This document shows positions 25,368-51,100 of a stretch of 64,000 nucleotides of DNA, piece after piece; within the stretch, counting starts at the first letter, position 1, and every line of letters begins with the position of its first letter. Position numbers and translations under genes: made by a program. The stretch comes from Psilocybe cubensis (taxonomy: Eukaryota). A model generated the notes under the pieces. It worked only from the letters and a program-made list of their open reading frames with translations, made no database searches and had not been told where the DNA came from. The DNA lies in NCBI GenBank assembly GCA_017499595.2, contig CM039005.1:930001-994000 (forward strand), in the 5' to 3' direction.

Positions 25368-25635
25368 TGTATAACACAGCGTTAGAGGGATAAGAATAAC
25401 GATAATGGTTGAAATTGAAGCATGTGAATGCGCGCAACAGCCAATTTATAAAGCGCCGAATGCCACTGCTTAGCCCAGGGTAGATGATTGATTAAATATC
25501 TTTAGCAGTACGCATTTGGCATCGTTGCCGGGCCAAACCCACGACATGTACTGACAAGTCATGAGTAGTAGTTTATAGCGCACTGAAATATTCAACATCT
25601 CCTAGCTGTTGTTCTCGATATTAGTCATAAACATT

Positions 25636-31507: not shown

Positions 31508-34095
31508 ATTCATCAAAATAGATTGAAATAGTGGGGACACAATTATTTGAAGAACACACACCTTCTCATCAATGGAAATGCAAAAAGTAAGAGTTGAAAC
31601 AAAAACAAGTTAGTTGTAACACCAAACAGTTGAATCAGCATTTACAACCCACATCCACAACGTACACACTGTATTAAATTAACGGACGTCTGTAAAAAAA
31701 TTTCACAAGAACCGACCAAATTTCGACGATTCAAATGTAGGCATTATGGCGTCGTTGTGGTGACCCTGCTATCTGTCCGATCATTACTGTGGTAAGGTGG
31801 CACCTTACAGTCGTACAATTGAATGAATCCATTCTGTAAATGTGAAATCACAGTTAGAAAATCAAGGACTTGTACCGCCGTACGAAGTGACGGCCTTCAA
31901 CTCAAGTGGATAGCTGAAGATGCCATGGCATATATAGTATATGCCCATCGACACGAATCGCATTTGTGGCATTCGGCTCACATATGAACATATGTGCCTC
32001 ATTGTGTGGGTTCTCTGCTCATCATACTCATGAACTTCAAACATTCACGGTTGACAAAGTGAATATTCAACTCAGACAGGATCCGTTCCTTGTTCCTTTT
32101 CCGACGACCGTCCATTTTCTTCTTAGCAATTTGAGTCTAAAAACCCGCAGCGCACATGAACAATGATAAAAGTCTAAAACGCCCAACATCAGACTGATAA
32201 ATTATAATCCAACCGTAGATCGATGAATCCTTTTTGCAAGATTTGCAGTGTGCACCAATCGCTTCCCGTTCTCGTCTTTGTATCCAGTGTTGCAAAAGAG
32301 AATCCTTTAAAATTATAATTGTATCAAACACATATGAGATCGTCATTCATCATCATCATTCTTCATTCAAGGTAAATCGTATATATCGCCCGGCATTGGC
32401 ATTGGCATTGGTATTCGTTATTCGTATCCATCGTGATTGTCATAGAACTTGAAATAATAGAATGGCATAAACAGTCTCGTCTAGCAAGTAGTGATAGTAG
32501 TGATAGTAGTGATAGTAGTAGTAGGGAATTGTAAGTTCGAGTTCGAATCTTTCGTCCGTTATCATATCAGAATCGGAGAAGGAGAATAAGAAGACCAAGA
32601 AAGAGAAAAGAATAGAAATCCCAATAAATACCGAACCAAGAAAAATCAAGAAAATCAAGAACCAAAGAAACGAGGGGGAGGGAGGGAGACTCGATCGAAC
32701 GCGGACAGTGTCAGTCAGAGAGAGCAAGGCTCACACCACCGCCGCTGCATCCTTCTTGCCCGTCTCCTTGCCTGTACCCCCGCCAACAGCCTGCACGCGC
32801 CTCAACGCGCTCCCAACCAGCACACCAACTTTCAAACTGTCCCTTCTACCCACCCTCTCCCTCTCCTTCACCTTCACCGTCTCCCGCTTCCCTACACCTG
32901 TACTTGCGCCTTCAGCTTCAACTTCACTCTCGCTCTCACCCACCACATCCCCATCCCCATCCACCTCTTTCCCCTTGCCCTTGCCCTTCCCCTTCCCCTT
33001 ACGCCCAAGCACAACCATCCCCATCCCCATCCCAGTCCCAGCCTTCGTCTGCTCACGCACCAACCCAGCCGGCCTCACCACCGTCGCCGTAACACTACTA
33101 ACCGTATTCAGCCCCGCATTCAGCCCCATCCTCGCCTTCCCAATCTTCACGCTCAACCGCGAGCGCAACGACGAGCTGCGCGAGGGTGTGATCGTGTCGG
33201 TTGGGACTGTGAGTGAGTTTGGGTCTTGGTTTTGGTCTTGGCCTTGCTTTTGGTTATGGGATGGGGAAGGATTAGCGCCCAACAAGTCGACAGCGCGTGC
33301 ACCGGAGTCCGCCGGCCCGGACACGATAGTCACCGGGACCGCGATACCCGACGACGACGCGGTGTTCTTCTCACTCTCATCACCCACACCTACACCAGGA
33401 GAAGGAGGAGGAGGCCCCGTAGCCTTCGCAACCCACGCGCTCCCCACACCCGCATCGTTCCCGGCGCTCAACAACCTCTTTTCGAGTGCTTCGACGGACG
33501 GCGTGCGTGCTGCTGCGGAGGAGGGGGTCCGGACTAGCGATGTCGGTGTTGCTGTCTTCGTGGTCGTTTCTGCCGTCGTTGCGGTTGTTGCTGTCGCAGT
33601 AGTAGACGCCTCCGCAGGCGAAGAAGAAGGAGAAGAAGGAGAAGAAGAAGAAACAACCACCACGCGGGGCGGCACAGCAATCACACTCGCGCGCGCACTC
33701 GTCATCGACACCACCACCCTCTCATCCTGCGCGTGCACCTGCAGTTCAACCTGCGACACGCCCGCCGAGCTCGACGCCAATTCCGATTCCGAGCGAGAGC
33801 CGTTGTTGCATTGAGACTGCGTATTCATATGCACATGGGCATGGGCATGGGAAGACGAATGGGAATGCGAAGAATCAACAGGCGAGCCCATTGACAAGCG
33901 CGACACACTCGAATTCGACCTCGTAAGTCCCTCCTTCTCCCCATCCCTATCCACGCACGGTGCGCCTTCAACGCTATGCGCAGCGCTCACATCCGCTTCA
34001 TGGCTCGAACCCGAATTCGACCCGGACCCTGAACACGCGCTCGTACTCGTACTCGTGCTCGAGCGCTGGCTTCGCGGCGGGGTAAGTAGCCCGAG
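30970..34095. repeat. Left arm of an inverted segmental duplication (partner 59490-64000, which continues past the window end)
   Basis: The reverse complement of 63442-64000 is nearly identical to 30970-31507. 62928-63441 matches 31508-32036, 61290-61516 matches 32037-32230, and 59490-61140 matches ~32430-34095. Confidence 0.9.
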
Positions 34096-37000
34096 ATCCA
34101 AAACGACCGGTTCAGCTTCCACTTCCTTCTCCTTTTCCTGGTCTTTCTCATTCTGCGTTTCATTTTCCTTGGTTGTGGACACGTCGGTGCTCCCATGGAC
34201 GTCAACGGGAGCGCTAACTTTCGCATTCGCATTCGTGCCCGCCGTTGCCTTCGCTTCACCTGCAGTCACAGTAGCGACAGCCCCCTTCCTCCGCACCGTC
34301 GTCCGCCTCCTCACAACCTCCACAACCTCCTCCACCACCTCTTCCTCCTCACCTTCCTCTCCACCAACACCACCCACCACCGACACCGATCCAACAGGCA
34401 CAACCGGCGGCACACCAACAACCTCCACATCCCCCGGCCCAACCCACGCACGCCCACACCCAACCGCATCGCTATTATCCCACTTTCTCCCTTGTTTCAA
34501 CGCACGAGTACCATTTAGATTCCCCAGCGCAGCGCGTACGTGGTCGTCTACCTCCTCCACAGCGCCACTGGTATGGTAGGAAGAATACGAGAAATCAGCG
34601 TCGAGGTCTAACGCGCCTAGCAGCACCGCCTCGCCGAGTGTAGGAAAGCGCGCGCGGTGGATACGGCGTTTGCGCGTGCGCGTGCGGGTTATTGTGCGCG
34701 GGTGCACTTGAGCGTCGGGGTCGTCGATGTTCTCCTCCTCATCCTCCTCGTCGTCGTTGTTGGCATTGATTTGGTCATCGTCGTCGTCATCGAACATACC
34801 CAACCAACTCCTCCTCTGTCTCCCCTCCACATCCACCTCCTTGCCCTTCCCCTTCTCATCGCCACTCCGACTCAACACCCTCCCAAACATACCCGGCGCA
34901 ACAAGATACGGCACCGCTCTCCCCTGCATCCTCCCCATCTCCCCTCCCCCTCCTCCCTCTCCCCATCCTGCTCCTCCCCCCATCCCCTGGCTAAGCAAGC
35001 TGGAGAGATGGCCCTGCCCCTGTCCAGGCATGGGCATGTGCATAGCCATATGCGGCGGCATATGCGGTGCGGGGGGTGCGCCCCATGAGACGGGGCGCGT
35101 GTTGATGCTGTTTATACCCTGTCTGAACGACGAGGGCGGGCCTGAGGCGGGGCCGCGTCGGGTTTGTGGTCTCGAGTTCGAGTGAGAGTGAGAGGGGGAT
35201 GATGCGGATGCGGATAGTGATGACGAGGATCTAGAGTGCGAGGGCGAGGAAGATGGGGAGGAGGAAGAGGAAGAGGAAGAGGATGGAGAGACGGGGTACG
35301 CGAAGCTTAATAGGAACTGCTCGATTCCCTGCACAAGCCTCGGTTTCTTCGCATTCCCATTCACACCCCCATGTCCATGTCCATTCGCATTCCCCCTCCC
35401 ATTCGCACCGTGTCCACTACCCGACGACGGATAAGGATTCGTATAAGCCCTCCCCCTCCCATGCGGCGGCAACGACGTGCAAAGCGACGACGAAGACGAA
35501 GACGTAGATGATGTGGCGAGCGGCGACGTTGCAGGTGCGCATGGCGCAGGACGCCAGTCCGCCGCGAGCACGTGCACGATATGCGCGTTTTGCGGTCGTG
35601 TCCTCGTTCGCGTCCTCGTTCGCGTTCCCTGGTGCTGCTGCTGAGAGTGTCTCCGACGCGTGGCGGTATCCCGTCTCACAACACCCATCTCCATCTCCAC
35701 ATCCAAATCCGCCGTTGCCCCCGTCCCCGTCCCCGTCCCAGCACCAAAGCCCGACAACGACAACGTCCCAGCGACAGACGCCGGGCGCGCAGTAACAGCC
35801 GCAAAAAGCGTCGAAATGCGCTTCGAAAGACTGCGGCGGCGCGTCATTTTAGCAGACGACGGCTGGGCTTTGTAGTCGTCCGCTAGCGCGAGTGTGAGTG
35901 TGAGGTCTTCGGATGAGAGCTCGCGCGCGGGTGTGGTGAGTGCTGTTGATGCGAGACTTGGGAGAGCTGGCGTTGACGCGCGCGAATCGTCGTTTTCTGA
36001 CGGGGGCGTTGATAGCGGGGAGTGCGAGGGGGAGTGGGAAGGCGAGGCAAAGGCGGTGGCGTCCGGAATGGAAATGGACGTAGAATTATGAGAAGAAGAG
36101 GATGAGGACGAGCCTAGTACGAAAGAGGAGAAGCGGCGGTGATGGTGCCGCTGTCGCGCGGTGGTGCTGATCTGCGCTTTGGGGGGAGCTGCGAGAGAAG
36201 CAGAGGTTGAGCCTGATGCTGATGCGGATAGCGAACACGAGGACGAGGTGCGTGTGGGTGGCGCGGAGTCCGCGGGGAGATGGCTGAGGGACAGTCTAGG
36301 TGGCGTTGCGGACGATATGGAGTGGACAGGTGCGGGTACAGACCCGCGGCGCTGGTAGTGGTATGCGGCGCCCGACTCGGGTGCGGCGCCGTGTGGGAGG
36401 GCGAGGTACTGTGCGCTGAGAGTGGTGAGCAAGATGGCGTGCTTGAAGAGCGCCTTTTCAGGCACGTTGCCGCCTGGGAGGAAGTTGACGATGGCGTCGA
36501 ATGCGCGCTGCTGTGCGGCGGACGCCGAGGCGGGGACGCTCGCTGGGGTGGTGGTGTAGTTCGCCAGGGACTGGGTCAGCTGGGAGAGGGTTGCGGCCAT
36601 TATGGAGCGCGGACGGCCGTTTTGGGATGAGGTTGTACTGTTCGATTCGGACGAGGCGATGGACACGACGCTGTTCCTGCGCGAGGACGCGGTGGATCCA
36701 GGCAGCGAGAGGGAGAGAGACTCGGAGAGCAATGAGAGGCGGTTCTTGATCGCCTCGGCCGTGGTGCGCTTCGCAGAGGAGATGGACGGGGCGGGCGAGG
36801 GGTACCTGCCCTCGGCGTCTGGCGGGGCGGTGGGGGTGAACTCGCCCATGGGGTCCTCGGCGAGGTGGAGGATGCGGGGTGGGGAGAGGGTGTTGCGCCA
36901 GGCGGCTGCTACGCGCTGGGCACGCTCGAAGAGCCCGACGAGGCGCAGGGCACCGGTGTCATGCACGTGTAGCGGTGCGGCGAGGCGGAGGATGCGGATC

Positions 37001-37297
37001 GCGGGGCCGCGGTGTTGGGCATCAGGGGGCAGCGGGACAGGGGTGTGTGTGGCGATGAGCACGAGTGAGGTGGCCAGCAGCGGCGAGTTGAGGAGTGGGG
37101 CGAGGTCAGTGGGGGTGGGCTCTGCAAGAACTTGTCAGCGGGCGAGACTGCGAAGAGGGGGACAACGTACCTCCGAGGATGAAGATGACCTGGGGCGGGG
37201 AGGGCTGGAGATCTGCGGGAATCCGCCATGGAGTGTTATGCTGTATATTCGCAAAGGGGTCGATGGGCAGACGGGGGCGAAAGACGTCGGAGGGCAT
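32731..37297 (-). CDS. Large (~1505 aa) hypothetical protein with a small ordered N-terminus and a long Ser/Pro/Gly-rich low-complexity body
   Basis: Exon 1 (37297-37171, MPSDVFRPRLPIDPF...QVIFILG) joins in frame through a 49-bp GT-AG intron (37170-37122) to a 4.4-kb stop-free exon that contains the 1443-aa ORF. Confidence 0.8.
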
Positions 37298-38899: not shown

Positions 38900-40086
38900 A
38901 ATGGCATCTATTATCTATTATCTATTATCTATTATCTCAGACCTTGCAAATTGCAACTTGTACCTTGAAATTGTGTCTATTGTGTCTATTGTCTAACCTG
39001 CGGCTGTCTTTTTTCGTGGCTTGTGGCTTGTGGCTTGTGGCTTGTGGATTGTGGATTGTGGATTGTGTTCTGTGGTCTATTCTCTATCCTCTGCTCTCGA
39101 CCTATCCTCTGTTCACAACCCACCCACCCCCCCTTCCACCCCCCCTCTCTTCCTCCCCCTCATCCAATGCCGTACGTCGTACGTATAACATCTCCAAGTA
39201 CATCGCCGCTGTCGAGATATCTATTTGTACCACACCGAAACCGAAACCGAAACCGAAACCGAAATCGCGGTGTGGCGTAATCCATCCCACTCTCACCTTC
39301 ATCTCGCGGTTTCCTCGTTCTTGAGATTCCGAGTCGTAATGCTCTCGAGACTACGAGTCGTAGTGCTCTCGTCATCGTCACCGTCACCTGTGTCTTCGAG
39401 TCATCCGAGTCATCTGTTCATCCTATCCATCTATCTAGTATCCTCATCGTCGTCCTCCTCATCCTCCTCCTCATCTTCTTCTTCTTTTTCTTCATTGGCA
39501 TTACTAGCACTGGCAGCATCACCATTAGCTTAGCAGCAGCATTCGCATTGTCATTGTCATTGTTTCATCCCATGCTACATAAACTTATGCTATGCTATAA
39601 TATCGCTATCGCTATCGCTATCTTACCGTAACCGTAACCGTAACCGTCATTACAGTAAACCCTTTGCAACCCTGTGGAACCTTATAGAAACGGAACTATG
39701 AAATCTGCGTGCGATACGTAGGCCAAGTCTGCCCTACCTGAGGAGATCTTGATGACTACAGTACGCAGTTATGCAAAGGAGATTCATTAAGCTTGGGCTT
39801 GGGCTTGGGCTTGGGATGGGATGGGATGGATGGGATGGGACGATGGAGGGAGGGAGGGAGGGGTGGACGTCATATTACATTAGATTACATTTACATTCCA
39901 TTTCGTTATATTACACCTTGTTATATTTGCTTCACGCTACTGTACTACATTACACTACACTTCTCCTTCTTCCTTCTTCCTTCCATCTTCCTTGCTCTTG
40001 CTACATGCCACTTGTTACTTGTTACTTGTTACCTGCTACTTGTCAAAATACCTCACATTATCTTATAATACATTACATTACATTAC
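38900..40086. repeat. Microsatellite-dense intergenic tract
   Basis: (GTGGCTT)n, (GTGGATT)n, (AAACCG)n, (CGCTAT)n, (CCGTAA)n, (CTTGGG)n, (ATGGG)n, (TTACTTG)n and (TTACA)n. The same character continues at 48173-49110. Confidence 0.75.
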
Positions 40087-40372
40087 TGTAGGGAAGGGGG
40101 CGAGTTCGAGAGAGGACAAAGTAGCCTGAGTACGGACAGAGTTTTGTAGATATTTATGTGTTTAGCACGGAAAGAGATGGGAAAAAAATAGGAAATATGA
40201 TTCGATACGTCCTTCGGTGTGTAACGACGTCTCCGGTAAGGTGCTAACTACTGACTACGCGTCTATGCTGTGGCCATATGGCGTCGACGATGCCAAGTGA
40301 GTGTGTCCGCAAGCGTCATGTGACGTGTTTGTTGTGAGTCGCGTCGCGCGCACGCGTATCCAAATCCCTACA
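40087..40372 (-). repeat. 3' LTR
   Basis: Base-for-base identical to 47887-48172, with an 8-bp terminal inverted repeat. Confidence 0.97.
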
Positions 40373-40385
40373 TCTCCCCCCCACT
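40373..40385 (-). other. Polypurine tract
   Basis: Sense-strand AGTGGGGGGGAGA directly precedes the 3' LTR. Confidence 0.85.
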
Positions 40386-40747: not shown

Positions 40748-43700
40748 CTATTCCTCGTCGCCGTCGAACTCCTCGCTGTTTAGGACCTCCGTGACCTCGA
40801 TGACCTGTCGATTCCGCGGATAATAGGGAATTAAACGAAATGCTGCGTATTTCAGCTTTGATTCAGCTCCATCGAGTTCTGCCAGACGGTATGAACCTCC
40901 TTCGGAGCGGCGTACGACGACAAGTGGTCCCATGTATCTCGGCTTGCCCTTCCTTCCCACTTCAGCCTCGACCTTCTTGTTCAAGACGAGCACTAGTTCT
41001 CCGGGTTGAAAATTATAATCAATGATCTTATGTTTGTTTTTCTCTTCAAATTCGGCAATGGACTGATATCTTCGCTTTAGAACACGTTCGTGGACCAGGG
41101 CTAGGTCGTCGTCGCGTCGCTCAAGTTGTCTTGCGCGCATACCGAGGAGTTCAGCGGTTGAAAGCGAACGGTCGATGTCCGGGAGTAGGAATGTTGCGTG
41201 AGTGAGGTCAAATGGTAGGAGCGGCTCGATTCCGTGCACAACATAGAATGGTGAGTACCCGATTGATTTCCTGATTGTAATTCGCTCAGCCCAGTACATG
41301 AATGCTACCCTCTCGTCCCACTTTTTCAAGGACCCGTCACCCGACTTGATCAGCGCTGTACGAATTGGGGTGTGCGTTGTTTCGACGACACCGTTCGCTC
41401 TCGAATTATAGCCAGAAATTCGAATATGGCTCACGTTGTATCGCTCGGCCAGCCATTCTAGTGCCGCCACGAATGGAGGTCCGTTATCCGTTATCATCTC
41501 AAATACTACTCCCCACCTCAACATCAACTTCATTAGAATGAAATTGCCTATCACCGCCGCCGTCTCCGTCTTCAACTTATCCCATTCTGGCCATGTCGAC
41601 ATCCCACATCTTGCTTGGACAATATATTTGTACCCGTTTGAGGGTGGCATGTGCATTGTGTCGATATGGCATCTGCAGAACAGCCTTTCGGGTATCATTA
41701 CGGTAGGTGGGATTACAACTTTCTCGAGCGACATCAATTGACATTGGTGACAGGTGTCGATGAACCATCGAATATCCTTATCAATTTTTGGCCACCAGTA
41801 GCGATCGGCAACGTTATGGCGAGTCGCAAAGTACCCTCGATGACCTAACATGTCATGTCCTTCGACTAGAACCTCAAGCCGGTCTTCTCCAAATAGCACG
41901 AGCTTGTGACGTATGCCGCTATCTCGACGCCATAATCTGTTCGCCTGGACAAAGAACCGACTGGCCTTCTTCACAAATCTCTTCAGTGCAACCCTATCGA
42001 GATTTGGTGGTGGTTTCAGTGTCTCCAGGTAAGTCTTGATTTGCATGAGCTCGTCGTCGAGTTGTCTGACTTCCTCTGTGTCTGGTAACCCTCCCTTTTC
42101 TGTCGCTTCCGCCATCTTTCTCTTGAATGCTGCTACCACTGCCTCCTCCACACTCATCACTTCTCCCTCTTTCGCTCCCTCGCTAATTTTAACCCCTGGT
42201 TCCTTCACCTTCACATCCATTCCTACTGCACCCTTCCCCTCGCTTCTCTTGTTCTTCCCTTTTAAACCTCGCTTTCCTATCCTCGGCCATTGATCTCCCT
42301 TCTTCCATCCCATTCCTGCCACTATCCACACCCCACATTGATACAACTCCTCCACCCACTGTTCTGCATCCTCCTCTGTCTCGTCCTCCTCGCCTTCAAC
42401 CTTCCGCCTCCGTGACAACCCATCTGGACCCTTGAAGTTCTTCCCAGGGACGTGGACCAGCTTGAAATCGAACATCAGAATGGCAGCAATCCATCGGTTC
42501 ATAGCTGCGTTTGGATGCGTATCAGGGTTATTGATCATACCCTTGATATATTTTGCGTCCACTTCGATGGTAAGATTTTGCACCCCAACAATCCAAATTT
42601 TGACTGAATGAATTGCTCGAAACAGGCCGTATAATTCCAGCTTTGCCTGCGAGTAGCGAGCTTCTCGTGGGTTCCATGGTATAGAACCGAACCGTGCAAT
42701 TATACGTGCGCCGTTTGCATCCAACTGCATGAGAATGAAACCAACTGCAATGTTTGAGGAGTCAACTTGAAGAATGACCGTAAAGCCACTCTTGTAATCG
42801 ATGGGGCGGATTGCTGGGCATGTCGTGACCGCAGTCTTCAGTGAATTCATTGCGTTTTGATGTTCCTTGTCCCATTTAAACTGAACTTGCTTCTTCGTTA
42901 GGTTGACCAATGGGATTGCAATCGCCGCAAAGTCCTTCACCCACTTCCTCACCACACCCGCCACTCCTAGAAAGCTTCGCACGTCGGTCGCGTTTTCGCA
43001 TGGTGGCCAGTTCTCAATTTTTATCACGCTCGACTTATCCGGTTTACGCCCTTCGTATGTCGATATCTGTCCCACTATCTTTGCTTCCGGCTGACACAAA
43101 ATCAGTTTCTTCGCAGATGCTGTGGCGCCAGCGTGTGCTAGTCTGTGAAGAACTCGATTCACGTCCATCAGGTGCTCCCACACAAACCTCCTCACTCCCG
43201 GATTCTCCTCCATCACCTCATAACCTCCGCCCGCCAACTCATACCTCGTCATTGGACCCAGGACCGCTATGTCATCGGAAAAATTCGGTGCAACTTCTGT
43301 TTCGTGTTGTAGGATGAATGCTACATCACGATGGAAGATTTGCAGCGAGTTTGTCCAACCTTGAGGCAACACAGTAAGCTGGTATGTTCCCGTTGGTGTT
43401 TCAAAGGCTGTTAACTCTCTCGACCGTTTGTCCAGCGTGTGGTGATCGTAACCCACGAAAAGGTCAATTGTTGTATAGATCGAGCGGCCGGCGCATTGCT
43501 CAGCATACAAATCAATCAATGGTGGTTGCGCAGAGTCTTTGATAGTGACTTCATTAAGCGGGACAAGGTTGTGCACAATGCGTAAGTCTTTTGATCCTTT
43601 CTTCTCGAACGTGATTGTTGCATGCCGATATGCACTTGTCGTAGGTTCTATGACACCAGCTTTTAACTTTTCGTCGATGAGCTTGTTGAACCGCTCTCGC

Positions 43701-46700
43701 AATGCTGGTGGAACTGGAAACGAGCGCTTTACCCAAGGTTCATGTTCGACGACCGGTATGACGACATCCGAGAAGTAGTCACTTCGAAATCTTCCTTTCT
43801 CAGCTTCCACCCATGCCAAACCTTTCTCGTTTGCTCGTAACACCGCCGCCACCACTTTCTTCTCTTCCTCCCACAAAAAATCATTCTCCTCCACTCCAAG
43901 CATCTTCCACCTCTCTTCTGTCAACCTTTCTCCTGGCTTAAATGGCCCTGGCGTCATTGGTATTGTCGGTAACGTCAACAGCGGGTCCTCTGGAAAGCGA
44001 CGTTGAACATTCGCATATTCTGGCATTGTTGTTGCAACCGGGTGAGTTTTCTTTGCTGCTGGCTTATACAACAATGTGTGCTGAACTTGATCATAGGTGA
44101 ATGTTGATCCTAGAAGCTCATTTGCGAGTTTTGTACGAGCTTGACTGTGCGCCATCATTACCACCTCCTCCACACTCAATTCCACCACCTCCTCTCTTGG
44201 TTGCTCTGCTCTTGCCTCCCTGTACATCAACACCTTCTTCACAACCTTCCTCGCTCGCTCTCTTGTTGGTATAACCTTTGCTTGACGTTGGTCTTTAGGA
44301 TCGTGCACAATCACATCTACCCGCCCATCGTTATGCTCAACCTTCCCTAGCCTCACGTACTTTTGCCACGGTCGTCCCAACAGCAACTCGAATGGGGCAT
44401 CGAGAGGTGCGATGAAAGCGTGTACCATTGATGCAATGCCTCCGACCTCAATCTCCATAAACTCGGCACATCCTCCCATCTCCTCCTTTTCGCCGGTCGC
44501 TGTTTCCATTGTCATTTGTTGCTCTTTGTTGACGCTGTGCCCTGTTCTCTCCCACAAGTCTTTCCTTATCACCACAATCTCTGACCCTTCATCTAACAAC
44601 CCGACCGATGCAACCGTCCCGCATACAACGACATCAATTTCCCGAAGTGGTGTACAGTATTCGAGTGTTGGCATCTTGAAGGTAGCCGCTCCTGTTGTTG
44701 CTGTCGTTGCTGACTTCTTTTCTGTATCCAATAGTGAGGTTTTGGGGAATGCCTCGTTAGGTACTCGCACAACCTTGAGTTTCTCAACCATTGTTTTTCG
44801 TACGTCCCCGCTGAGTGCGTAAATATCGCCGACCGTAACCTCAGGTATAATAGTTTTGAAGATTTTCTCTGCCATCTTCAAAGCCGCTTTTGGATCAGAT
44901 ATGCTGGACTCGTATGTGTATGCTTTCTCGTGTCCTCCTCGCTGAATGGCATTGGGATCGAAACGGATGTGTTTGATGTCAGTGTGGTGTCCTTCTCCCT
45001 CCTCCGCCCTTGCCTTTCCTTTTCTCTCCTTCATCTCTCTCTCTATCCTCTTTTCCTGCTCCTTCCTCCCGCTCTCCTCATCATCATCACCCGTCTTCTT
45101 CCCGCTTCGTGTCTGCAGCAATGCCTCCGCTGTGGCCACCTCTTGCCATGCCATCCACTCCACTTTGCCCTCGCTTTCGTACCCGTTCTCCCATGGGATC
45201 TCCTTCCACTCGTTTCGCACTTCCTCCACTGTTTTCTTCCGCCCGCTACTTGCTTCCACTTTCACTTGTTCTCCATTGCGCCCTGTGGTGTATGTCTTAG
45301 CGTTTCTGGTAGTCTGCGTATAATAACCGCTTGTTGCAACATTGACATGTGGTGGTTGATCCCTCTGCCACCCTTCTTGACCTGGGGTTGGAACTGCTGA
45401 CCCGAACCGCTTATCAACAGCGTCCTTCAAACTCTGCCCATATTCAAAACGGATAGGCTCTCCGTTTGCATATGTCAATCGAGCTGGAGTTCCAAACCAC
45501 ATGATGCGGCCAACTTTAACGTATTCGGCTGCGGCTACACAGTCACGTATGCGATGTTGTCCTTTTTTGCAGAAATAGCAGCTGTTTGAACTTGGGCCTG
45601 ACATACCCGCCTGGGCGTATTGTATTGGTGGTGGGATTTGCATTTGCGGAGCGGCGAATGTTTGTGCCTGCGTATGATAAGCCTGAGTTTGATACGTTGG
45701 TGCAAATTGTGGCTGATAGGGTGCGTGTACTGCCATGTTTGTTGCTGCCGCCTGCTGAGTTGTTGCCAGTAGTGTTGGTATCCAGATATGCGCGTTTGGG
45801 TCCATAGCACAGAGTTGACCGTAGGTTGCAGCATAATTTGCGTCGCCAACTTTCAATCCTGCTAGCTTGCGTGTCAAGTCACCAATATCCTCTTCTCGAG
45901 TCTTCTTCTTTGGTTCGCCAAATGAGACTCGTCGAGTTCGCACCACATCCTCCTCCTCTTTCACCTTTGCAATCTCCTCTTCCTTCCGCCTCTCTGATCT
46001 TGCCCTCAACTCCGCCAGCTCTCTATCCTTCTCCCTCTCCCTCTCCCTCTCTTTTTCTCTCTTTTTCTTCTTCTTCTCCTTTGCATCCCGTCGCTTCTCC
46101 TTTCTCCTCCTCTTCCTCCTCTCGTCCTCACTATCTGACGATTCAGTGTATGATTCTGATGTGTCCGATGACACAGACTCGGTTTCTGACTCGGTTTCTG
46201 AATCCAATGATGAATCCGATGAGCTGCTCTCATGTTTCTTCTTCCGCCGCTTTTCCTTCTTCTTCAGCTTCTTCTGTGCCCTCCTCAACTTCTCCTCTCG
46301 CTCAGCTCTCTTCCCTTTCCCTACATCCTCGTCTAATAACAGCCTCGCCGTTTTCAACACATCCTCCACCGCTGGAGCTGCCATCCTTCCCGTCAACCCT
46401 ATTTTCTTCCCCCCCATCTGCACTTCCACCCGGTCTTGAAGGCGAGGCGGTAAGCCCATCCAGAAGTACTCGTTCAATTCGTCTTCAGTGATCTCGCCTT
46501 GTTTGACTAGCCAGAGACCAATTGGTTCAAAGTTTTTATTGTACTCGGTGAGCTCGACACTGGTCCTGATGCCACTGCCCTTTGTCGCTTTGGCAATCAC
46601 TCTCGTCAAGTCGTCCACCGTGTAACTCCCACCCTTTGTCATCCACGGATATTCCTCCTTTAACTTCTCCTTCATTGCCTTGAAGCTCCGTGGTCGGTCC

Positions 46701-47704
46701 AATCGGTAACCCTTGAAAGTTTTCCAGAACTTCACATCTGACTCTTTCCTCAAATAGTCCACCACTGCCTCTGCCATCATCTCGTCATTTAACCCCGCCG
46801 TCTTTGCTAACCTTTCGAACTTCCCCAGAAAGTCCTCCAGCTCATCTACATCTCCTGACCAGCTAGGTGCTTTACTCGAGCCCGGCGCTGGCATCTCCTT
46901 CAAAAAGGTTGTCGTCGATCCTCCTGGTTGAACCATGTTGTTATTTGTCTTTGGTGCGTCCTTCTCTTCTTTCGATTCTTCTTTCTTCAATTCTCCTGAT
47001 TGGGATTCGGGTATAGGGACTTGTAACGACTTTGGTTCTTCTTTGTTGGATGTCTGGCTGTCTTGTTTAGCTGGAGCTGGTACGTCGGTTGCTTTGAACT
47101 CGTCTTGCTGTTGCTGATCTTCTTCGTCTTGCTTCGTTTCTTCTCCTACTTGCTGTTCCTTGTTAACGTCTTCTTTGTCTTCTTCTCCTGATTCTGACCT
47201 TGCCTCCGGCGACTCAGATCTGATAGATCTTGGTGGTGGATCTGATTCCTCGTTGAAATCGAGTTCTGGTAAGAAATCGCCGTCCGATGTTTGCCACTCT
47301 TTGGCGCTATCAAATTCGTCTTCACGAGGTTCGTCAACCGGCTCTTCAATCGACGCTAGTCGTGGTACACTTGGTGGTGTTGCAACAGACCACGCTCCTG
47401 GGAATGTACCTTGTGGAAATGAGAACCGATTGAATAACGGTGGTGGTGCGTGTCGAAACGAAAATTGGGTTGGCGTAGGTGTGATAGGGTCAGTATTTGG
47501 TGCGTTGACAGTGAGCTCGTTAGCGTCCTGTGGACTAACAGACGCAGATCGCTCCCTATAACTGACAGGTGCAATGTTGCGGCGATTTCGAGGTGCTTCC
47601 GAGGTGGGTAATAACGAGTTAGAACTGCTGGCTTTCGACGATGGTTTGTACTCAGATTCGTCGTCCTTTTTCTTCCCTTTCCTTGGAGCTAACTTGGGTA
47701 TCAC
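40748..47704 (-). CDS. Gag-Pol polyprotein in a single frame; first in-frame ATG at 46936
   Basis: Capsid-like APSWSGD...FERLA; zinc knuckle CYFCKKGQHRIRDC; protease LLDEGSEIV; RT IDLFVGY...LPQGWTNS...FSDD; RNase H VDSSNIAVG...YSQAKLELYGL; integrase HDMLGH...CHQC, HIDTM, TDNG, NGVVE and a GPY/F-like PRYMGP motif. Confidence 0.95.
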   Translation of the reverse strand: MIPKLAPRKGKKKDDESEYKPSSKASSSNSLLPTSEAPRNRRNIAPVSYRERSASVSPQDANELTVNAPNTDPITPTPTQFSFRHAPPPLFNRFSFPQGTFPGAWSVATPPSVPRLASIEEPVDEPREDEFDSAKEWQTSDGDFLPELDFNEESDPPPRSIRSESPEARSESGEEDKEDVNKEQQVGEETKQDEEDQQQQDEFKATDVPAPAKQDSQTSNKEEPKSLQVPIPESQSGELKKEESKEEKDAPKTNNNMVQPGGSTTTFLKEMPAPGSSKAPSWSGDVDELEDFLGKFERLAKTAGLNDEMMAEAVVDYLRKESDVKFWKTFKGYRLDRPRSFKAMKEKLKEEYPWMTKGGSYTVDDLTRVIAKATKGSGIRTSVELTEYNKNFEPIGLWLVKQGEITEDELNEYFWMGLPPRLQDRVEVQMGGKKIGLTGRMAAPAVEDVLKTARLLLDEDVGKGKRAEREEKLRRAQKKLKKKEKRRKKKHESSSSDSSLDSETESETESVSSDTSESYTESSDSEDERRKRRRKEKRRDAKEKKKKKREKEREREREKDRELAELRARSERRKEEEIAKVKEEEDVVRTRRVSFGEPKKKTREEDIGDLTRKLAGLKVGDANYAATYGQLCAMDPNAHIWIPTLLATTQQAAATNMAVHAPYQPQFAPTYQTQAYHTQAQTFAAPQMQIPPPIQYAQAGMSGPSSNSCYFCKKGQHRIRDCVAAAEYVKVGRIMWFGTPARLTYANGEPIRFEYGQSLKDAVDKRFGSAVPTPGQEGWQRDQPPHVNVATSGYYTQTTRNAKTYTTGRNGEQVKVEASSGRKKTVEEVRNEWKEIPWENGYESEGKVEWMAWQEVATAEALLQTRSGKKTGDDDEESGRKEQEKRIEREMKERKGKARAEEGEGHHTDIKHIRFDPNAIQRGGHEKAYTYESSISDPKAALKMAEKIFKTIIPEVTVGDIYALSGDVRKTMVEKLKVVRVPNEAFPKTSLLDTEKKSATTATTGAATFKMPTLEYCTPLREIDVVVCGTVASVGLLDEGSEIVVIRKDLWERTGHSVNKEQQMTMETATGEKEEMGGCAEFMEIEVGGIASMVHAFIAPLDAPFELLLGRPWQKYVRLGKVEHNDGRVDVIVHDPKDQRQAKVIPTRERARKVVKKVLMYREARAEQPREEVVELSVEEVVMMAHSQARTKLANELLGSTFTYDQVQHTLLYKPAAKKTHPVATTMPEYANVQRRFPEDPLLTLPTIPMTPGPFKPGERLTEERWKMLGVEENDFLWEEEKKVVAAVLRANEKGLAWVEAEKGRFRSDYFSDVVIPVVEHEPWVKRSFPVPPALRERFNKLIDEKLKAGVIEPTTSAYRHATITFEKKGSKDLRIVHNLVPLNEVTIKDSAQPPLIDLYAEQCAGRSIYTTIDLFVGYDHHTLDKRSRELTAFETPTGTYQLTVLPQGWTNSLQIFHRDVAFILQHETEVAPNFSDDIAVLGPMTRYELAGGGYEVMEENPGVRRFVWEHLMDVNRVLHRLAHAGATASAKKLILCQPEAKIVGQISTYEGRKPDKSSVIKIENWPPCENATDVRSFLGVAGVVRKWVKDFAAIAIPLVNLTKKQVQFKWDKEHQNAMNSLKTAVTTCPAIRPIDYKSGFTVILQVDSSNIAVGFILMQLDANGARIIARFGSIPWNPREARYSQAKLELYGLFRAIHSVKIWIVGVQNLTIEVDAKYIKGMINNPDTHPNAAMNRWIAAILMFDFKLVHVPGKNFKGPDGLSRRRKVEGEEDETEEDAEQWVEELYQCGVWIVAGMGWKKGDQWPRIGKRGLKGKNKRSEGKGAVGMDVKVKEPGVKISEGAKEGEVMSVEEAVVAAFKRKMAEATEKGGLPDTEEVRQLDDELMQIKTYLETLKPPPNLDRVALKRFVKKASRFFVQANRLWRRDSGIRHKLVLFGEDRLEVLVEGHDMLGHRGYFATRHNVADRYWWPKIDKDIRWFIDTCHQCQLMSLEKVVIPPTVMIPERLFCRCHIDTMHMPPSNGYKYIVQARCGMSTWPEWDKLKTETAAVIGNFILMKLMLRWGVVFEMITDNGPPFVAALEWLAERYNVSHIRISGYNSRANGVVETTHTPIRTALIKSGDGSLKKWDERVAFMYWAERITIRKSIGYSPFYVVHGIEPLLPFDLTHATFLLPDIDRSLSTAELLGMRARQLERRDDDLALVHERVLKRRYQSIAEFEEKNKHKIIDYNFQPGELVLVLNKKVEAEVGRKGKPRYMGPLVVVRRSEGGSYRLAELDGAESKLKYAAFRLIPYYPRNRQVIEVTEVLNSEEFDGDEE

Positions 47705-47866
47705 TTTCCCAGAAGAAGATCGAATTCCCGAGCCCTTCTTGAGAAAGGAGCCTCGAACCGGTTGGGATGTCGAACTTCCGCTGTTTGAGGCAATATTGAC
47801 AGTTCCTCAGTGACACGGGGTTTAACGGACAAGGGGGCGGGCAAAACCGGTTTTACTGGTTTTGTC

Positions 47867-47884
47867 CCCTCGCGGTGGGCTCCA
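47867..47884 (-). other. Primer-binding site (18 nt)
   Basis: TGGAGCCCACCGCGAGGG starts 2 nt after the 5' LTR. The TGG is complementary to a tRNA CCA end. Confidence 0.8.
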
Positions 47885-47886
47885 GA

Positions 47887-48172
47887 TGTAGGGAAGGGGG
47901 CGAGTTCGAGAGAGGACAAAGTAGCCTGAGTACGGACAGAGTTTTGTAGATATTTATGTGTTTAGCACGGAAAGAGATGGGAAAAAAATAGGAAATATGA
48001 TTCGATACGTCCTTCGGTGTGTAACGACGTCTCCGGTAAGGTGCTAACTACTGACTACGCGTCTATGCTGTGGCCATATGGCGTCGACGATGCCAAGTGA
48101 GTGTGTCCGCAAGCGTCATGTGACGTGTTTGTTGTGAGTCGCGTCGCGCGCACGCGTATCCAAATCCCTACA
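47887..48172 (-). repeat. 5' LTR
   Basis: Identical to 40087-40372. Confidence 0.97.
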
Positions 48173-51100
48173 TTACCTTACATTACATCGCATCATACAA
48201 CAAACTACAAACTACACACAACACACAACACCCATCCCCATCCCCATGCTGATTCTTCACCGTCTGTTCCAGTCGCGCCTGAACCTGAGTATAACTACAA
48301 GCACAAGCACAAGGTACTCAGTAATCTAATCAACTGACATACGGGTCCAGGATAGCGGGTTGGCCGCTATCACGCGTAATCCTTCTTCTGCTCCTACTCC
48401 AGATCCTCCTCCTCCCCGAATCCGAGGAGTCGGAGACTCGGAGACTCGGAGAGTTGGAATGGCTGGAACCTGGGAAGGGGCGAAAGAGTGGGCAAGGGAA
48501 ACGGGAAAGGGAAACGGGAAACGGGAAACGGGAACTGCAAGGGAAAAGGGAACTGCAAGTGAGAAAGGATACATGGACATGCTGGCATCAATATAACTGT
48601 TTACGCATTCAACTTCAACTTCATCGTCATCTTTATGCATGTACTTACGCACCTACGCATGAACGCATGCACGGAAGCGTGTATTCATGTACGCAAGCGT
48701 GTCATTCGCTGTTGAACGTCGAACGGTTGAACGGTTGAACGGTGATCATTTGGAGTCATTTGGAATCATTTCATTTCACTTCATAAGCAAGCAAGTAACT
48801 AATTAACCCGAGAAGGTGGAAGGTGAAAGGTGGATGCGTGGGTGTGTGGGTGCGTGGATGAGTGCGTGCCGCCGCCCGGCCGACCGACGCGCTTCAACTC
48901 CAGAGGTCTTTGTGTTCACCAAGCATCCAATATCGAATGTTTATTATAATACCTATTTCCCACCCACTGAAGTACCTAATTCACCCTCTAGTCTAGTCTA
49001 TCCGGAGAAACTACCCACTGGCGGGCCAAGTATTGCAACGTCCAACATCCAACACGACGACGCAAAAGCGAAAGCGAAAGCGAAACGACGAGGGGGCGGC
49101 GGCGGCGGTTCCAAGTTCCAAATAGTTCCAAGTTACCCAAAGTTGCCTAAAGTTATCACTGGCGCGCTATGCGCTTGATTCTCGAAGCGTGAGATTACTA
49201 CTACATAGTAGCGCCCAACCTGCCAGCAAGATGAAACTTGAAGTTTCAAGCTTCGAGTACAGCCCCCGTGTGAAGAGACAGTCAAATTTCACAGAGCGTA
49301 TACGCATGCGAGCGCGGGCGCGGGATTACAATGCTTAGATTCGGGACTGGAGCAGGAATTCTCTCCTTTTCGTCTTGCTTCCCCCTCTCGTCCCGCTACA
49401 TACCATCAACATCCGAGTCAACAGCACCGCTTTTTAGTGTATATTTTGAAATTTTCTCATTCATAATTCGTGATTACACCCCGAAAAACGCAAAAGCACA
49501 GGCTAGCACAAACAACTTGAAAAATGAAAAATACATCACTCGTTCCTTCCTGCCGGGCGCCAAGTCTCCCAAAATTGCCAAATAAACTACAGCCTGAAAT
49601 AACAAAAAACCATCCAAAATCAAATTTGAACCTCGAAAGGAAATACATAGATGCATAATTAATTATGCCAGCCAACCAGCGTCGAAGCTCGAGCGCGTCG
49701 GGTCGGAGTCGGAGGTTAGATATATCATATGTATAATGTATTGAATTTGGATTTATCATTTGTGAAGGGGGGTCCTACCTGGTCCTACGTGCGGGACCAA
49801 TGGCAGCTGGCGCTGAAGGCCAAGTACACAGTTGGCTGTGCGCCATCCCGCCCTTGCGCCTCCAAGCTCCCGGCGAGGGAACGCGCACAATTTGAATTAC
49901 ATGCGAGTGTAAATATTTTGGCGATTTTGAGGCTCGAGCGCACCGCCATCGTGATGCGCTATGTCAATTCATGCGAATAAGTGGATAAGTATGGCGCCTT
50001 AGCGCCCCCCTTAACTGTGGTGCCTTGGTTCGCTGGCGCCCACAACGCGTTTACGTGTCGGGTTGTCGTGTAATCGAGCAATTAAGTCCTAACGGACATA
50101 GCGACAGACTTTGGTTAACTGAATTCATTTACAATTTATATTGAAGAATCCATGCATTGACGAAACCCCAGGGCCAGGGCACCTCAATACTGAATTGTAT
50201 CGCGTCCTGACGCTCCACAGGCCATGCGCGCGCGATCGTTGTTCAAATTCAATGGATTATTGAATGGCGGGGCTGTACATGTAGTAACCAGCCCCTAGCC
50301 CAACTTCCGAGTCCGCGAGTCCGACCCGCGTCCCGTTGACTGTTCCTCGATCGATCTATATTTAGATTCTGGTGATCGAGACTCGAGAGTGTTATGGTAA
50401 GCTCAAGCTGGACTTGACTGGAAAGATTATGACGCCTACACAGTTCTAGAGTAAGACTTGAAGCATTTTAAAATTCAAGAGACTGAGTATGCGCAAAAAC
50501 ACGTGTTTGGTTGGAATCCGAGTAGAAGCATGCACGCGCACGCAGATTCTCAGCCTGCACCTGCACCTCAACCTTAACTATGAGCGACTAATATCTATGG
50601 TCGCTGATAAGATTTACACTAACGTTTAAAGCCGCCTCGCGCTAGTGGTCGCGGTCGTCCCGCACTCGAGAGAAGCGGTCTGCGGAGGCGACTTGCAAAG
50701 CGATCACTAATATTTTCCGAATCGGGAAGCCGCAGAGGGATTTAAAGTACGAGCGTCTGTGCATCGCGAGCCCGCACAGGATGGTCTAGAAGTGGTAGTG
50801 GATACATTTTATAGGCTAGAAATGTACTCACTTTGCGGTGAAGAACTTAGAAGGCTACCGGTTTATCTTGTTAATTAGCTCTGGCATTGACGTGATGGGC
50901 GATTGCGGGCGATTTTCGGTGGTTCGTGGCTTCGTCGCATCTCATGGAAGTGGTACGTTTGTATCAGAGTGATGCAAAATCAACCTCGACATCTTGTCTC
51001 TGTAATGACTCAGCAACAACAGTGCGACCTACCCGATGAACAAGTGAAAGGAAATGCAAAGGTGCGAATAATCGCAACCACCCTTGTTGTAAGTTGGAAG

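What the first reader, a model, noticed from the sequence alone, without database searches (positions are those of the whole stretch)
46937..48074. ATG-free 1.1-kb retrotransposon leader holding ~290 open codons in frame with gag-pol
Seen: the gag-pol frame is open from just after a TGA at ~47810 to the first ATG at 46936. By manual scan there is no ATG in any frame on the sense strand from ~48074 (inside the 5' LTR) to 46937, where roughly 17 would be expected at uniform base composition. The extension reads like protein: basic PRKGKKK, Pro-rich and acidic tracts, with no Met. Established: MLV makes glyco-Gag from an upstream CUG by leaky scanning. Inference: non-AUG initiation (for example GTG at 47704, context AAAGTGA) gives an extended Gag isoform while scanning ribosomes still reach the AUG. 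This could be a little-described expression strategy in fungal Ty3 elements.
Basis: partly seen in the sequence, partly recalled or inferred. Interest (0 to 1): 0.7.

Follow-up and report, generated by a model that had tools for sequence, protein, structure and literature searches.

The report
ATG-free, coding-like retrotransposon leader
A young fungal retrotransposon has a 1.1-kb leader with no ATG that stays open in the gag reading frame; this may yield a longer Gag from an unusual start codon, but some sister copies carry stop codons there, so any such product looks dispensable.

Summary
An intact Ty3/gypsy-type element lies on the minus strand, with identical LTRs, a 4-bp target duplication and PR-RT-RNaseH-IN. 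Its sense strand has no ATG from 48076 to 46937 (1140 nt). Only 1 of 5000 dinucleotide shuffles reaches zero. The gag-pol frame is open for 290 codons upstream of the AUG at 46936, which 0 of 5000 shuffles reach.

For it:
- One diverged relative (P0002) keeps the proximal ~124 codons in frame with Gag. It starts them at an AUG, as FeLV does compared with MLV.
- ATGs occur in the LTR just upstream of 48076 but never downstream.

Against it:
- Raw DNA reads of another isolate show two stop-gain variants in the extension (35/110 and 10/96 reads).
- The SNP spectrum there looks neutral, and SNP density is 3.5 times that of adjacent gag.
- Identity to the relative drops from 82% to 54% exactly at the AUG.
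- The extension is predicted to be unstructured, and no in-frame CUG exists.

New: the only probably RNA-derived contigs over the leader are antisense. They are spliced at five GT..AG introns on the + strand.

Best reading (about 0.45): a scanning leader free of upstream AUGs with an optional, fast-evolving Gag extension started at a near-cognate codon.

The parts
47887..48172 (-). 5' LTR (286 nt, TG..CA ends). The sense strand has ATGs at 48119 and 48077 only; its last 190 nt are ATG-free.
   Evidence: The 287-nt direct repeat is 100% identical. Ends were read.
40087..40372 (-). 3' LTR, identical to the 5' LTR.
48173..48176 (-). Target-site duplication GTAA (sense). Its partner is at 40083-40086. 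The insertion lies in a GTAAT-like repeat.
   Evidence: read directly from the sequence.
47867..47884 (-). PBS-like stretch that starts with TGG, 2 nt after the 5' LTR.
   Evidence: This is an inference from position and the TGG start. There is no tRNA in the window to compare it with.
40373..40382 (-). Polypurine tract GGGGGGGAGA next to the 3' LTR.
   Evidence: In one search, 81 X14 reads run from the LTR into this junction.
46937..48076 (-). ATG-free run on the sense strand (1140 nt).
   Evidence: 1 of 5000 shuffles has zero ATG.
47807..47809 (-). In-frame TGA that bounds the open frame on its 5' side.
46937..47806 (-). 290-codon in-frame extension with no Met, Cys or stop. It is rich in Ser, Glu, Pro and Lys. 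The first third is basic and the rest acidic. It is predicted to be unstructured.
   Evidence: 0 of 5000 shuffles; pLDDT 36-50, no secondary structure.
46934..46936 (-). First AUG, in context CAACAUGG; it aligns with a Met in relative P0002. Predicted Gag helices start 7 residues after it.
40748..46936 (-). Gag-pol ORF from the AUG (2062 codons plus stop), with protease, RT, RNase H and integrase zinc-binding domains.
   Evidence: (Pfam PF13650, PF00078, PF17919/PF17917, PF17921).
47792..47794 (-). In-frame AUU at codon 5, with A at -3 and G at +4. Candidate near-cognate start.
   Evidence: Candidate only.
47702..47704 (-). In-frame GUG at codon 35, with A at -3.
   Evidence: Candidate only.
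47573..47575 (-). In-frame AUU at codon 78, in context CAAC AUU G. This matches the AUG's own context and lies just before the part with coding-like codon usage.
   Evidence: Candidate only.
47056..47056 (-). Variant site in sister copies: + strand G>A turns sense CAG into TAG at codon 251.
   Evidence: 35 of 110 X14 reads.
47722..47722 (-). Variant site in sister copies: + strand G>A turns sense CGA into TGA at codon 29.
   Evidence: 10 of 96 X14 reads.
47644..47712 (+). Antisense intron (69 nt, GT..AG on the + strand).
   Evidence: joint in X10 and X11 contigs, 0 X14 DNA reads.
47500..47547 (+). Antisense intron (48 nt).
   Evidence: X10, X11.
47080..47217 (+). Antisense intron (138 nt).
   Evidence: X10 only.
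46706..46757 (+). Antisense intron (52 nt), inside the gag coding region.
   Evidence: X10, X11.
46450..46510 (+). Antisense intron (61 nt), inside the gag coding region.
   Evidence: X10, X11.

Best explanation
The stretch is the 5' leader of a young, apparently intact Ty3/gypsy-type LTR retrotransposon of a probable basidiomycete.

Main product: the AUG at 46936 starts the main Gag-Pol. Ribosomes that load at the cap must scan roughly 0.9-1.1 kb to reach it, and that is why the whole stretch has been kept free of ATG in all three frames.

Minor product: the last 870 nt of the leader also form an in-frame, disordered, fast-evolving N-terminal extension of Gag. A small share of scanning ribosomes would start at a near-cognate codon and make a longer Gag(-Pol) isoform. 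Candidates are AUU at 47575 or 47794 and GUG at 47704. The rest scan on to the AUG.

Comparisons: a related element starts the same extension at an AUG, which mirrors FeLV (AUG) against MLV (CUG). The extension is dispensable for a copy to exist in the genome and is under weak constraint at best.

Shown: the anatomy, both statistical signals, in-frame retention in one relative, and stop-bearing sister copies.
For: 1. The frame is open for 290 codons upstream of the AUG: 0 of 5000 dinucleotide shuffles reach this. The other sense frames have 5 and 15 stops.
2. No ATG occurs in any frame for 1140 nt: 1 of 5000 shuffles has zero, with a mean of 7.07. By gag-pol's own rate (55 in-frame and 67 out-of-frame ATGs in 6186 nt), about 17 would be expected in 870 nt.
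3. ATGs are tolerated just upstream of the run. The LTR has ATGs at 48119 and 48077. The variant at 48083, carried by 166 of 202 X14 reads and by all contigs of X10-X12, creates a further ATG at 48084. None of the 14 SNPs in the extension, and neither of the two LTR SNPs inside the run (48015, 48026), creates one.
4. Codon-usage log-likelihood, trained on gag-pol, is positive only in the gag frame: 0.136 against -0.05 and -0.41 overall, and 0.31 and 0.18 for codons 97-160 and 161-290.
5. The only hit among 1.84 billion representative proteins, P0002, aligns to codons 162-290 and continues into Gag in one frame. All gaps are in frame, and it has no internal Met before the conserved Met.
6. The copy is young and looks functional: LTRs are 100% identical, it has a target duplication, and 2062 codons are intact with PR/RT/RH/IN. 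So the ATG-less state belongs to a recently active lineage. No variant at 5% or more in X14 restores an ATG.
7. The mechanism has precedents in reverse-transcribing elements. These include MLV CUG-initiated Gag, FeLV weak-AUG Gag and RTBV AUU (passages of PMC3542737), and RTBV leaky scanning over about 900 nt helped by the absence of internal AUGs (passage of PMC5902531).
Against: 1. Two stop-gain variants lie in the extension among family copies of another isolate: 47056 at 35/110 reads and 47722 at 10/96 reads.
2. The 14 SNPs in the extension split 4 synonymous, 8 nonsynonymous and 2 stop. The neutral expectation is 5.3, 8.1 and 0.65, so there is no sign of purifying selection.
3. SNP density is 14 per 870 nt against 4 per 849 nt in adjacent gag (binomial p = 0.018 by length, 0.048 by CpG count).
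4. Identity to P0002 falls from 83/101 downstream of the AUG to 70/129 upstream of it.
5. The first 96 codons have no coding-like codon usage. GC3 and Glu/Lys codon choice differ from gag-pol.
6. There is no in-frame CUG. The candidates are weaker codon types and their conservation could not be tested.
7. The extension is predicted to be unstructured and matches no Pfam family.
8. P0002 was found through the extension, so relatives with a closed frame could not have been seen. Its own Gag frame is cut short after about 103 Gag residues.
9. No evidence of sense RNA was obtained. The probably RNA-derived contigs over the leader are antisense-spliced.
Confidence: 0.45

Rival explanations
1. Recent relic. 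The extension was the N-terminal part of a longer Gag started at an upstream AUG in a recent ancestor, with leaky scanning to the conserved AUG, as in the relative P0002 or FeLV. This lineage lost that AUG. The stretch is now only an untranslated scanning leader whose open frame has not yet decayed.
For: - P0002 starts the extension with an ATG.
- Sister copies already carry two stop-gains, and the SNP spectrum is neutral-like.
- The leader has 3.5 times the SNP density of gag.
- Conservation drops sharply at the AUG, and predicted structure begins at the AUG.
Against: - About 4-6% of transitions create an in-frame stop, so an unconstrained 290-codon frame survives only some 15 substitutions. 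The loss would have to be very recent.
- P0002's ATG aligns with codon 161, yet the frame here is open for 160 more codons upstream. The lost AUG would therefore have to lie elsewhere.
- No X14 variant at 5% or more carries such an ATG.
- Some near-cognate initiation on an AUG-free leader with an open frame is hard to avoid; this rests on general knowledge (passage).
Confidence: 0.3
2. The mature sense mRNA does not contain most of this stretch. Either transcription starts far downstream in the leader, or a sense intron removes it. The ATG-free run and the open frame then have another cause.
For: No sense 5' end or sense transcript could be observed. Contigs cannot show starts or strand.
Against: - A motif scan for GTNNGY..CTRAY..YAG finds 0 candidates on the sense strand of 48172-46900 and 33 on the antisense strand. 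The motif is generic and recalled, so this is weak evidence.
- The PBS-like site at 47884 must be in the genomic RNA for replication; this follows from retroelement biology.
- ATGs stop exactly inside the LTR at 48076. That fits a start site inside the LTR.
Confidence: 0.07
3. The sequence features are shaped by the antisense spliced RNA, as an antisense gene or regulatory RNA, and not by translation of the sense strand.
For: - Five canonical GT..AG introns lie on the + strand across gag and the leader in contigs of two probably RNA-derived runs (X10, X11). They are absent from DNA reads.
- One antisense frame has only 2 stops in 290 codons.
Against: - The spliced antisense RNA has no convincing ORF. 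The longest open stretches are low-complexity mirror images of the sense coding.
- An antisense function gives no reason for a lack of CAT on the + strand, or for an open sense frame joined to gag.
- Two of the five introns lie in undoubted gag coding sequence, so the introns do not mark a separate captured gene.
Confidence: 0.05
4. The extension is reached by a programmed frameshift from an AUG-started upstream ORF, as described for yeast YFS1/YPL034W.
For: The precedent is a conserved extension that lacks its own start codon (passages of PMC12719033).
Against: The only upstream ATGs (48119, 48077) share one frame. That frame stops at 48065-48063, 257 nt before the open frame begins at 47806, and no ATG follows. 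There is no overlapping ORF to shift from.
Confidence: 0.01
5. Chance, or base composition alone.
For: - The leader is poor in G and T.
- A low-complexity host gene in the same window is ATG-free for 752 nt, and other trinucleotides have longer free runs.
Against: - 1 of 5000 shuffles reaches zero ATG and 0 of 5000 reach the open frame; none reaches both.
- The two features coincide and abut the gag AUG.
Confidence: 0.02

Closest known systems
MLV glycosylated Gag (CUG start) and the homologous FeLV extension (weak-context AUG start)
   Same: - An in-frame N-terminal extension of Gag is encoded in the leader.
- It starts upstream of the Gag AUG, which is still reached by leaky scanning.
- Related elements differ in using a non-AUG or an AUG for the upstream start (passages of PMC3542737). 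This mirrors this element against P0002.
   Different: - This is a fungal Ty3/gypsy-type element, not a gammaretrovirus.
- The extension has no hydrophobic segment that could act as a signal peptide (best 15-residue hydropathy 0.47).
- It has no in-frame CUG and no family match.
- Translation is not shown.
Rice tungro bacilliform virus leaky scanning (AUU-started ORF I, AUG-free ORFs I-II)
   Same: - It is a reverse-transcribing element whose RNA has about 900 nt of coding sequence without internal AUGs, so that ribosomes can scan on to a downstream AUG.
- The first ORF starts at AUU (passages of PMC5902531, and PMC3542737).
- Here 870-1140 nt are AUG-free, and the best-context candidates are AUU codons.
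   Different: RTBV expresses separate ORFs after a shunt. Here a single frame continues into gag, so the product would be an isoform and not a separate protein. The host kingdom also differs.
[quoted passage not shown]
   Same: The diagnostic pattern is the same: an in-frame open stretch upstream of the annotated AUG with no intervening AUG. For both papers only the search listing and the start of the abstract were seen.
   Different: Those cases rest on cross-species conservation and experiments. Here there is one relative, and the within-family polymorphism looks neutral.
Yeast YFS1/YPL034W extension reached by +1 frameshifting
   Same: An in-frame extension that lacks its own AUG (passages of PMC12719033).
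   Different: There is no overlapping AUG-started upstream ORF here.
Antisense RNAs of retroelements (Ty1 antisense transcripts, HTLV-1 HBZ). These names are recalled and come from no call.
   Same: An antisense transcript covers gag, the leader and the 5' LTR, and it is spliced.
   Different: No antisense ORF is supported. Its start, end and function are unknown.

Membership tests
Ty3/gypsy-type LTR retrotransposon | Two direct LTRs with TG..CA ends, flanked by a short target-site duplication | tested here: met
   The LTRs are 286 nt and 100% identical. TG..CA ends and a 4-bp GTAA duplication are read.
Ty3/gypsy-type LTR retrotransposon | Pol domain order protease - RT - RNase H - integrase | tested here: met
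   Pfam hits along P0001: PF13650 at 1060-1147, PF00078 at 1404-1580, PF17919/PF17917 at 1645-1776, PF17921 at 1975-2025.
Ty3/gypsy-type LTR retrotransposon | PBS after the 5' LTR and a polypurine tract before the 3' LTR | tested here: inconclusive
   A TGG-started stretch lies 2 nt after the LTR, and GGGGGGGAGA lies before the 3' LTR. No tRNA was available to test complementarity.
Ty3/gypsy-type LTR retrotransposon | Recognisable Gag capsid domain | tested here: inconclusive
   No Retrotrans_gag hit, even at E = 1. Helices are predicted from residue 298. The Atlas lists gag-domain clusters only at scores of 0.83-0.85, which is no more than a lead.
Non-AUG N-terminal extension with leaky scanning (glyco-Gag-like mechanism) | In-frame open stretch upstream of the main AUG | tested here: met
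   290 codons; 0 of 5000 shuffles reach this.
Non-AUG N-terminal extension with leaky scanning (glyco-Gag-like mechanism) | No AUG in any frame between the upstream start and the main AUG | tested here: met
   1140 nt are ATG-free; 1 of 5000 shuffles reaches zero.
Non-AUG N-terminal extension with leaky scanning (glyco-Gag-like mechanism) | A conserved near-cognate codon in strong context | tested here: inconclusive
   Seven in-frame near-cognates have a purine at -3, and two AUU also have G at +4. There is no CUG. Conservation cannot be tested, because no relative's DNA was obtainable.
Non-AUG N-terminal extension with leaky scanning (glyco-Gag-like mechanism) | Purifying selection on, or frame conservation of, the extension among relatives | tested here: inconclusive
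   For: P0002 keeps 124 codons in frame at 54% identity, with in-frame gaps only. Against: two stop-gains and a neutral-like spectrum among sister copies.
Non-AUG N-terminal extension with leaky scanning (glyco-Gag-like mechanism) | Direct evidence that the extension is translated | not testable with these tools
   No listed run holding the stretch is on record as RNA, and no ribosome-profiling or proteome data were within reach.
MLV/FeLV glyco-Gag (homology, as opposed to mechanism) | Signal or anchor peptide in the extension, and sequence relatedness | tested here: not met
   There is no hydrophobic segment and no Pfam match. Among 1.84 billion representatives the only hit is a fragment of a related element.
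RTBV-type polycistronic leaky scanning | Several separate ORFs expressed in turn from one RNA | tested here: not met
   The AUG-free stretch is a single frame that continues into gag-pol.

The most novel reading that the evidence does not exclude
A basidiomycete Ty3/gypsy-type retrotransposon makes two Gag-Pol isoforms from one genomic RNA. A long form starts at a near-cognate codon, most plausibly an AUU in the same context as the AUG. It carries a disordered extension of about 200-290 residues with a basic N-terminal part that includes the PRKGKKK motif. The standard form is reached after about 1 kb of leaky scanning through a stretch kept free of AUG in every frame. This combines the RTBV and glyco-Gag strategies in a fungal LTR element. 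An abundant, multiply spliced antisense RNA over the same leader may set how much sense RNA is available.
Probability: 0.35. Interest if true: 0.65.

Novelty: new variant of a known kind. Interest (0 to 1): 0.5.

Why it matters
If the extension is translated, this would be a clear case outside retroviruses and plant pararetroviruses of an LTR element that sets the ratio of two Gag isoforms by non-AUG initiation and kilobase-scale leaky scanning. My searches of the held library listed no paper whose title or abstract start describes this for a fungal LTR retrotransposon. I judged that from listings only, and most subscription-journal papers are not in the library.

It also has a practical side. 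Annotation pipelines that start gag at the first ATG would miss such isoforms. An ATG-free run joined to an open frame is a cheap signature for finding more of them.

If the frame is instead a relic, the locus still shows how quickly a dispensable Gag N-terminus decays compared with the capsid core.

The antisense transcript, spliced five times, is a separate lead on how the host or the element controls expression.

Tried and rejected
- Whole-genome search for other copies: no genome is held for this window.
- Other copies in the window: none by blastn or tblastn.
- Earlier findings of the scan: nothing by place, by sequence (twice) or by words.
- The search for homologous proteins with the 290-residue extension at near lengths, at longer lengths, and with residues 1-420 of P0001: no hit in any of the 3 searches. 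The near-length search also missed P0002, so these blanks are weak.
- The search for related loci with alignment A1 in metagenome contigs and viral contigs: no relative.
No nucleotide alignment or dN/dS was therefore possible.
- The look-up of sequencing runs: no holder is on record as RNA. X10 and X11 are only guessed to be RNA; the splice joints seen in them are what suggests they derive from RNA.
- Pfam on the extension at E up to 1: nothing.
- Rfam on 46700-48300 at E up to 1: nothing.
- RNA folding: the leader (z = +1.06) and the adjacent gag (z = +1.76) fold no better than shuffles, so there is no sign of a special structure.
- Synonymous-choice test: NAT codons occur 0 times before G and 11 times before other bases, while NAC codons occur 15 and 11 times (p = 0.0008). 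I rejected this as independent evidence, because the empty cell is forced by the absence of ATG.
- ATG-creating variants among sister copies: 0 observed against 1.8 expected (p = 0.17). Not informative.
- Frameshift from an upstream ORF: excluded by the sequence.
- An early guess that the host is a Cryptococcus, based on the intron style, was dropped. The only taxon lead is Basidiomycota, from the Atlas at a score of 0.90.
- Supplementary files of papers were not requested.


Full report
**Anatomy.** The finding lies inside one complete LTR retrotransposon on the minus strand.
- Two 286-nt LTRs (47887-48172 and 40087-40372) are 100% identical.
- The LTRs begin with TG and end with CA. They are flanked by a 4-bp duplication, GTAA, in a GTAAT-like repeat.
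- A TGG-started PBS-like stretch follows the 5' LTR after 2 nt, and a polypurine tract precedes the 3' LTR.
- One frame runs stop to stop from 47806 to 40748, 2352 codons. It carries protease, RT, RNase H and integrase zinc-binding domains in Ty3/gypsy order.
- No second copy is in the window, and no genome is held for it.
- Host genes nearby are ordinary: F-box-like proteins, ATG11 and a long low-complexity protein.
- The only taxon lead is Basidiomycota, from the Atlas at a score of 0.90.

**The observation.** It is correct.
- The sense strand has no ATG from 48076 to 46937, a run of 1140 nt. The neighbouring ATGs are at 48077 and 46936.
- Dinucleotide-preserving shuffles give a mean of 7.07 ATGs, and 1 of 5000 has none.
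- Gag-pol itself has 122 ATGs in 6186 nt.
- The run is the longest ATG-free run on either strand of the window. Three other trinucleotide pairs have longer free runs, and a low-complexity host gene is ATG-free for 752 nt. The location, which abuts the gag AUG and starts inside the LTR, therefore carries the weight.
- The gag frame is open for 290 codons upstream of the AUG. No shuffle out of 5000 reaches that (median 21, maximum 240). The other sense frames have 5 and 15 stops.
- The two signals together are not chance.

**Does the extension look like protein?** Partly.
- Codon-usage log-likelihood, trained on gag-pol, is positive only in the gag frame (0.136 per codon, against 0.19-0.32 for pol chunks).
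- That signal comes from codons 97-290 (0.31 and 0.18). Codons 1-96 show none.
- Third-position composition and Glu/Lys codon choice differ from gag-pol.
- The product would be rich in Ser, Glu, Pro and Lys, with no Met or Cys and no hydrophobic segment. Its first third would be basic and the rest acidic.
- A single-sequence AlphaFold2 model gives no secondary structure and pLDDT of 36-50 for residues 1-290. Helices begin at residue 298, seven residues after the AUG-encoded Met.
- Pfam and Rfam find nothing.
- The leader RNA folds no better than shuffles.

**Relatives.** A full HMMER scan of 1.84 billion representative proteins with the extension gave one hit, P0002 (E = 2.8e-22).
- P0002 has 242 residues and comes from a single 2639-nt contig with no name.
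- It begins with a Met that aligns with codon 161 here. It continues in one frame through the conserved Met into Gag, then diverges after about 103 Gag residues.
- Identity is 70/129 in the extension and 83/101 in Gag, and all gaps are in frame.
- So at least the proximal 124 codons have stayed open and in frame in a diverged lineage, and there an AUG starts them.
- This resembles FeLV against MLV: the homologous Gag extension starts at a weak-context AUG in FeLV and at a CUG in MLV (passage of PMC3542737).
- Caveats: this is one relative, found through the extension itself, so closed-frame relatives could not have been seen. Its ATG may be only the first ATG of a longer open frame. Its DNA was not obtainable.
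- Three word-indexed protein searches and two locus scans found nothing more.

**Sister copies.** Raw DNA reads of another isolate (X14) laid on 46000-48400 give about 100-120 reads of depth over the leader and about 30 over the flank, so several copies are present.
- In the 870-nt extension there are 14 SNPs at 5% or more, and no indel.
- In the 849 nt of gag that were covered there are 4 SNPs (binomial p = 0.018 by length, 0.048 by CpG count).
- The 14 split 4 synonymous, 8 nonsynonymous and 2 stop-gains: CAG to TAG at 47056 (35/110 reads) and CGA to TGA at 47722 (10/96 reads).
- For 9 CpG and 5 other transitions, the neutral expectation is 5.3, 8.1 and 0.65. The spectrum therefore shows no purifying selection.
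- The stops may sit on decaying copies, since each inserted copy drifts. Without phasing they show only that copies with a closed extension exist.
- None of the 14 SNPs creates an ATG (1.8 expected, p = 0.17; not informative).
- In contrast, the variant at 48083 is carried by 166/202 X14 reads and by the contigs of X10-X12. It creates an ATG at 48084, eight bases outside the ATG-free run.
- ATGs are thus tolerated in the upstream part of the LTR and absent from 48076 onwards. That fits a transcription start inside the LTR downstream of 48076, which is an inference.

**Unexpected: antisense splicing.** Contigs of two runs guessed to be RNA (X10, X11) cover gag, the leader and the 5' LTR.
- They skip five segments whose ends are GT..AG on the + strand, which is antisense to the element: 46450-46510, 46706-46757, 47080-47217 (X10 only), 47500-47547 and 47644-47712.
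- No X14 DNA read shows these joints.
- The introns have GTAAGC-, GTACGT- or GTGCGT-type donors and end in CAG or TAG; CTAAC-like motifs lie near the acceptor in two of the printed tails.
- A sixth candidate (46954-47016) matches a contig break.
- The spliced antisense RNA has no convincing ORF.
- A generic intron-motif scan finds 0 candidates on the sense strand of the leader plus LTR and 33 on the antisense strand.
- Contigs follow the commoner path. In those samples, antisense spliced RNA therefore probably outweighed unspliced RNA (sense or antisense) at these sites. Contigs show presence, not absence.
- This does not explain the sense-strand signals. It does mean that sense expression was not observed.

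**Mechanism.** An ATG-free run in all three frames is what scanning to a distant AUG requires. Ribosomes that had already started upstream would not care about out-of-frame ATGs. An open in-frame stretch needs translation, now or very recently, because some 4-6% of transitions create a stop.
- Both features together are the pattern of leaky scanning past a weak upstream start.
- RTBV is the nearest precedent: an AUU-started first ORF and about 900 nt without internal AUGs (passages).
- In-frame candidates here are AUU 47794 (A at -3, G at +4), GUG 47704, and AUU 47575 in the context CAAC AUU G, which copies the AUG's own context and lies just before the coding-like part.
- A frameshift from an upstream ORF, as in yeast YFS1, is excluded. 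The LTR ORF ends 257 nt before the frame opens.

**How I weigh the readings.**
- Optional near-cognate-started extension plus leaky scanning: 0.45
- Recent untranslated relic of an AUG-started longer Gag: 0.30
- Leader not in the mature sense mRNA: 0.07
- Features shaped by the antisense RNA: 0.05
- Chance: 0.02

**Verdict.** It would be a new variant of a known kind. Interest is moderate (0.5): the signature is clean and testable, but the only population data available look neutral and nothing shows translation.

Noticed in passing
window 46450-47712 (+ strand): Contigs of two runs guessed to be RNA (X10, X11) show an antisense transcript over gag, the leader and the 5' LTR. It is spliced at five canonical GT..AG introns of 61, 52, 138, 48 and 69 nt, and no DNA read shows these joints. 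One contig is 4106 nt long and runs well beyond the stretch that was laid.
   Followed up: partly
window 46954-47016 (+ strand): A sixth candidate antisense intron (63 nt, GTGCGT donor) coincides exactly with the gap between two X10 contigs. It is predicted from motifs only.
   Followed up: partly
window 47080-47712 (+ strand): The three antisense introns seen inside the leader (138, 48 and 69 nt), and the predicted one (63 nt), all have lengths divisible by three. The two in gag (61 and 52 nt) do not. Unexplained; it may be coincidence.
   Followed up: no
window 46900-48172, both strands: A generic intron-motif scan finds no candidate on the sense strand and 33 on the antisense strand. This would fit selection against splicing of the genomic RNA, or simply the sense strand being poor in G and T.
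   Followed up: partly
window 48083: The window's copy has G on the + strand in both LTRs. In X14, 166 of 202 reads have A there, as do the contigs of X10-X12. This adds an ATG at 48084 on the sense strand, just outside the ATG-free run.
   Followed up: yes
window 48187-48400: X14 reads over the upstream flank are about a quarter of the leader depth. They include a diverged second form: clustered SNPs, and a 71-nt segment replaced by 28 other letters at 48276-48348. This suggests a polymorphic or heterozygous insertion site.
   Followed up: no
window 40070-40086 and 48173-48190: The element sits in a short GTAAT-like tandem repeat and has a 4-bp duplication.
   Followed up: partly
window 32731-37134 (- strand): A 1467-codon intron-free open frame encodes a very Ser-, Pro-, Ala- and Gly-rich low-complexity protein with no Pfam match. 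It contains a 752-nt ATG-free run, which served here as a composition control.
   Followed up: partly
window 20261-22090 and 23565-25445 (- strand): Two neighbouring open frames of about 610-630 codons each give weak F-box-like hits (E about 2e-4, below Pfam's cut-off). They may be tandem paralogues.
   Followed up: no
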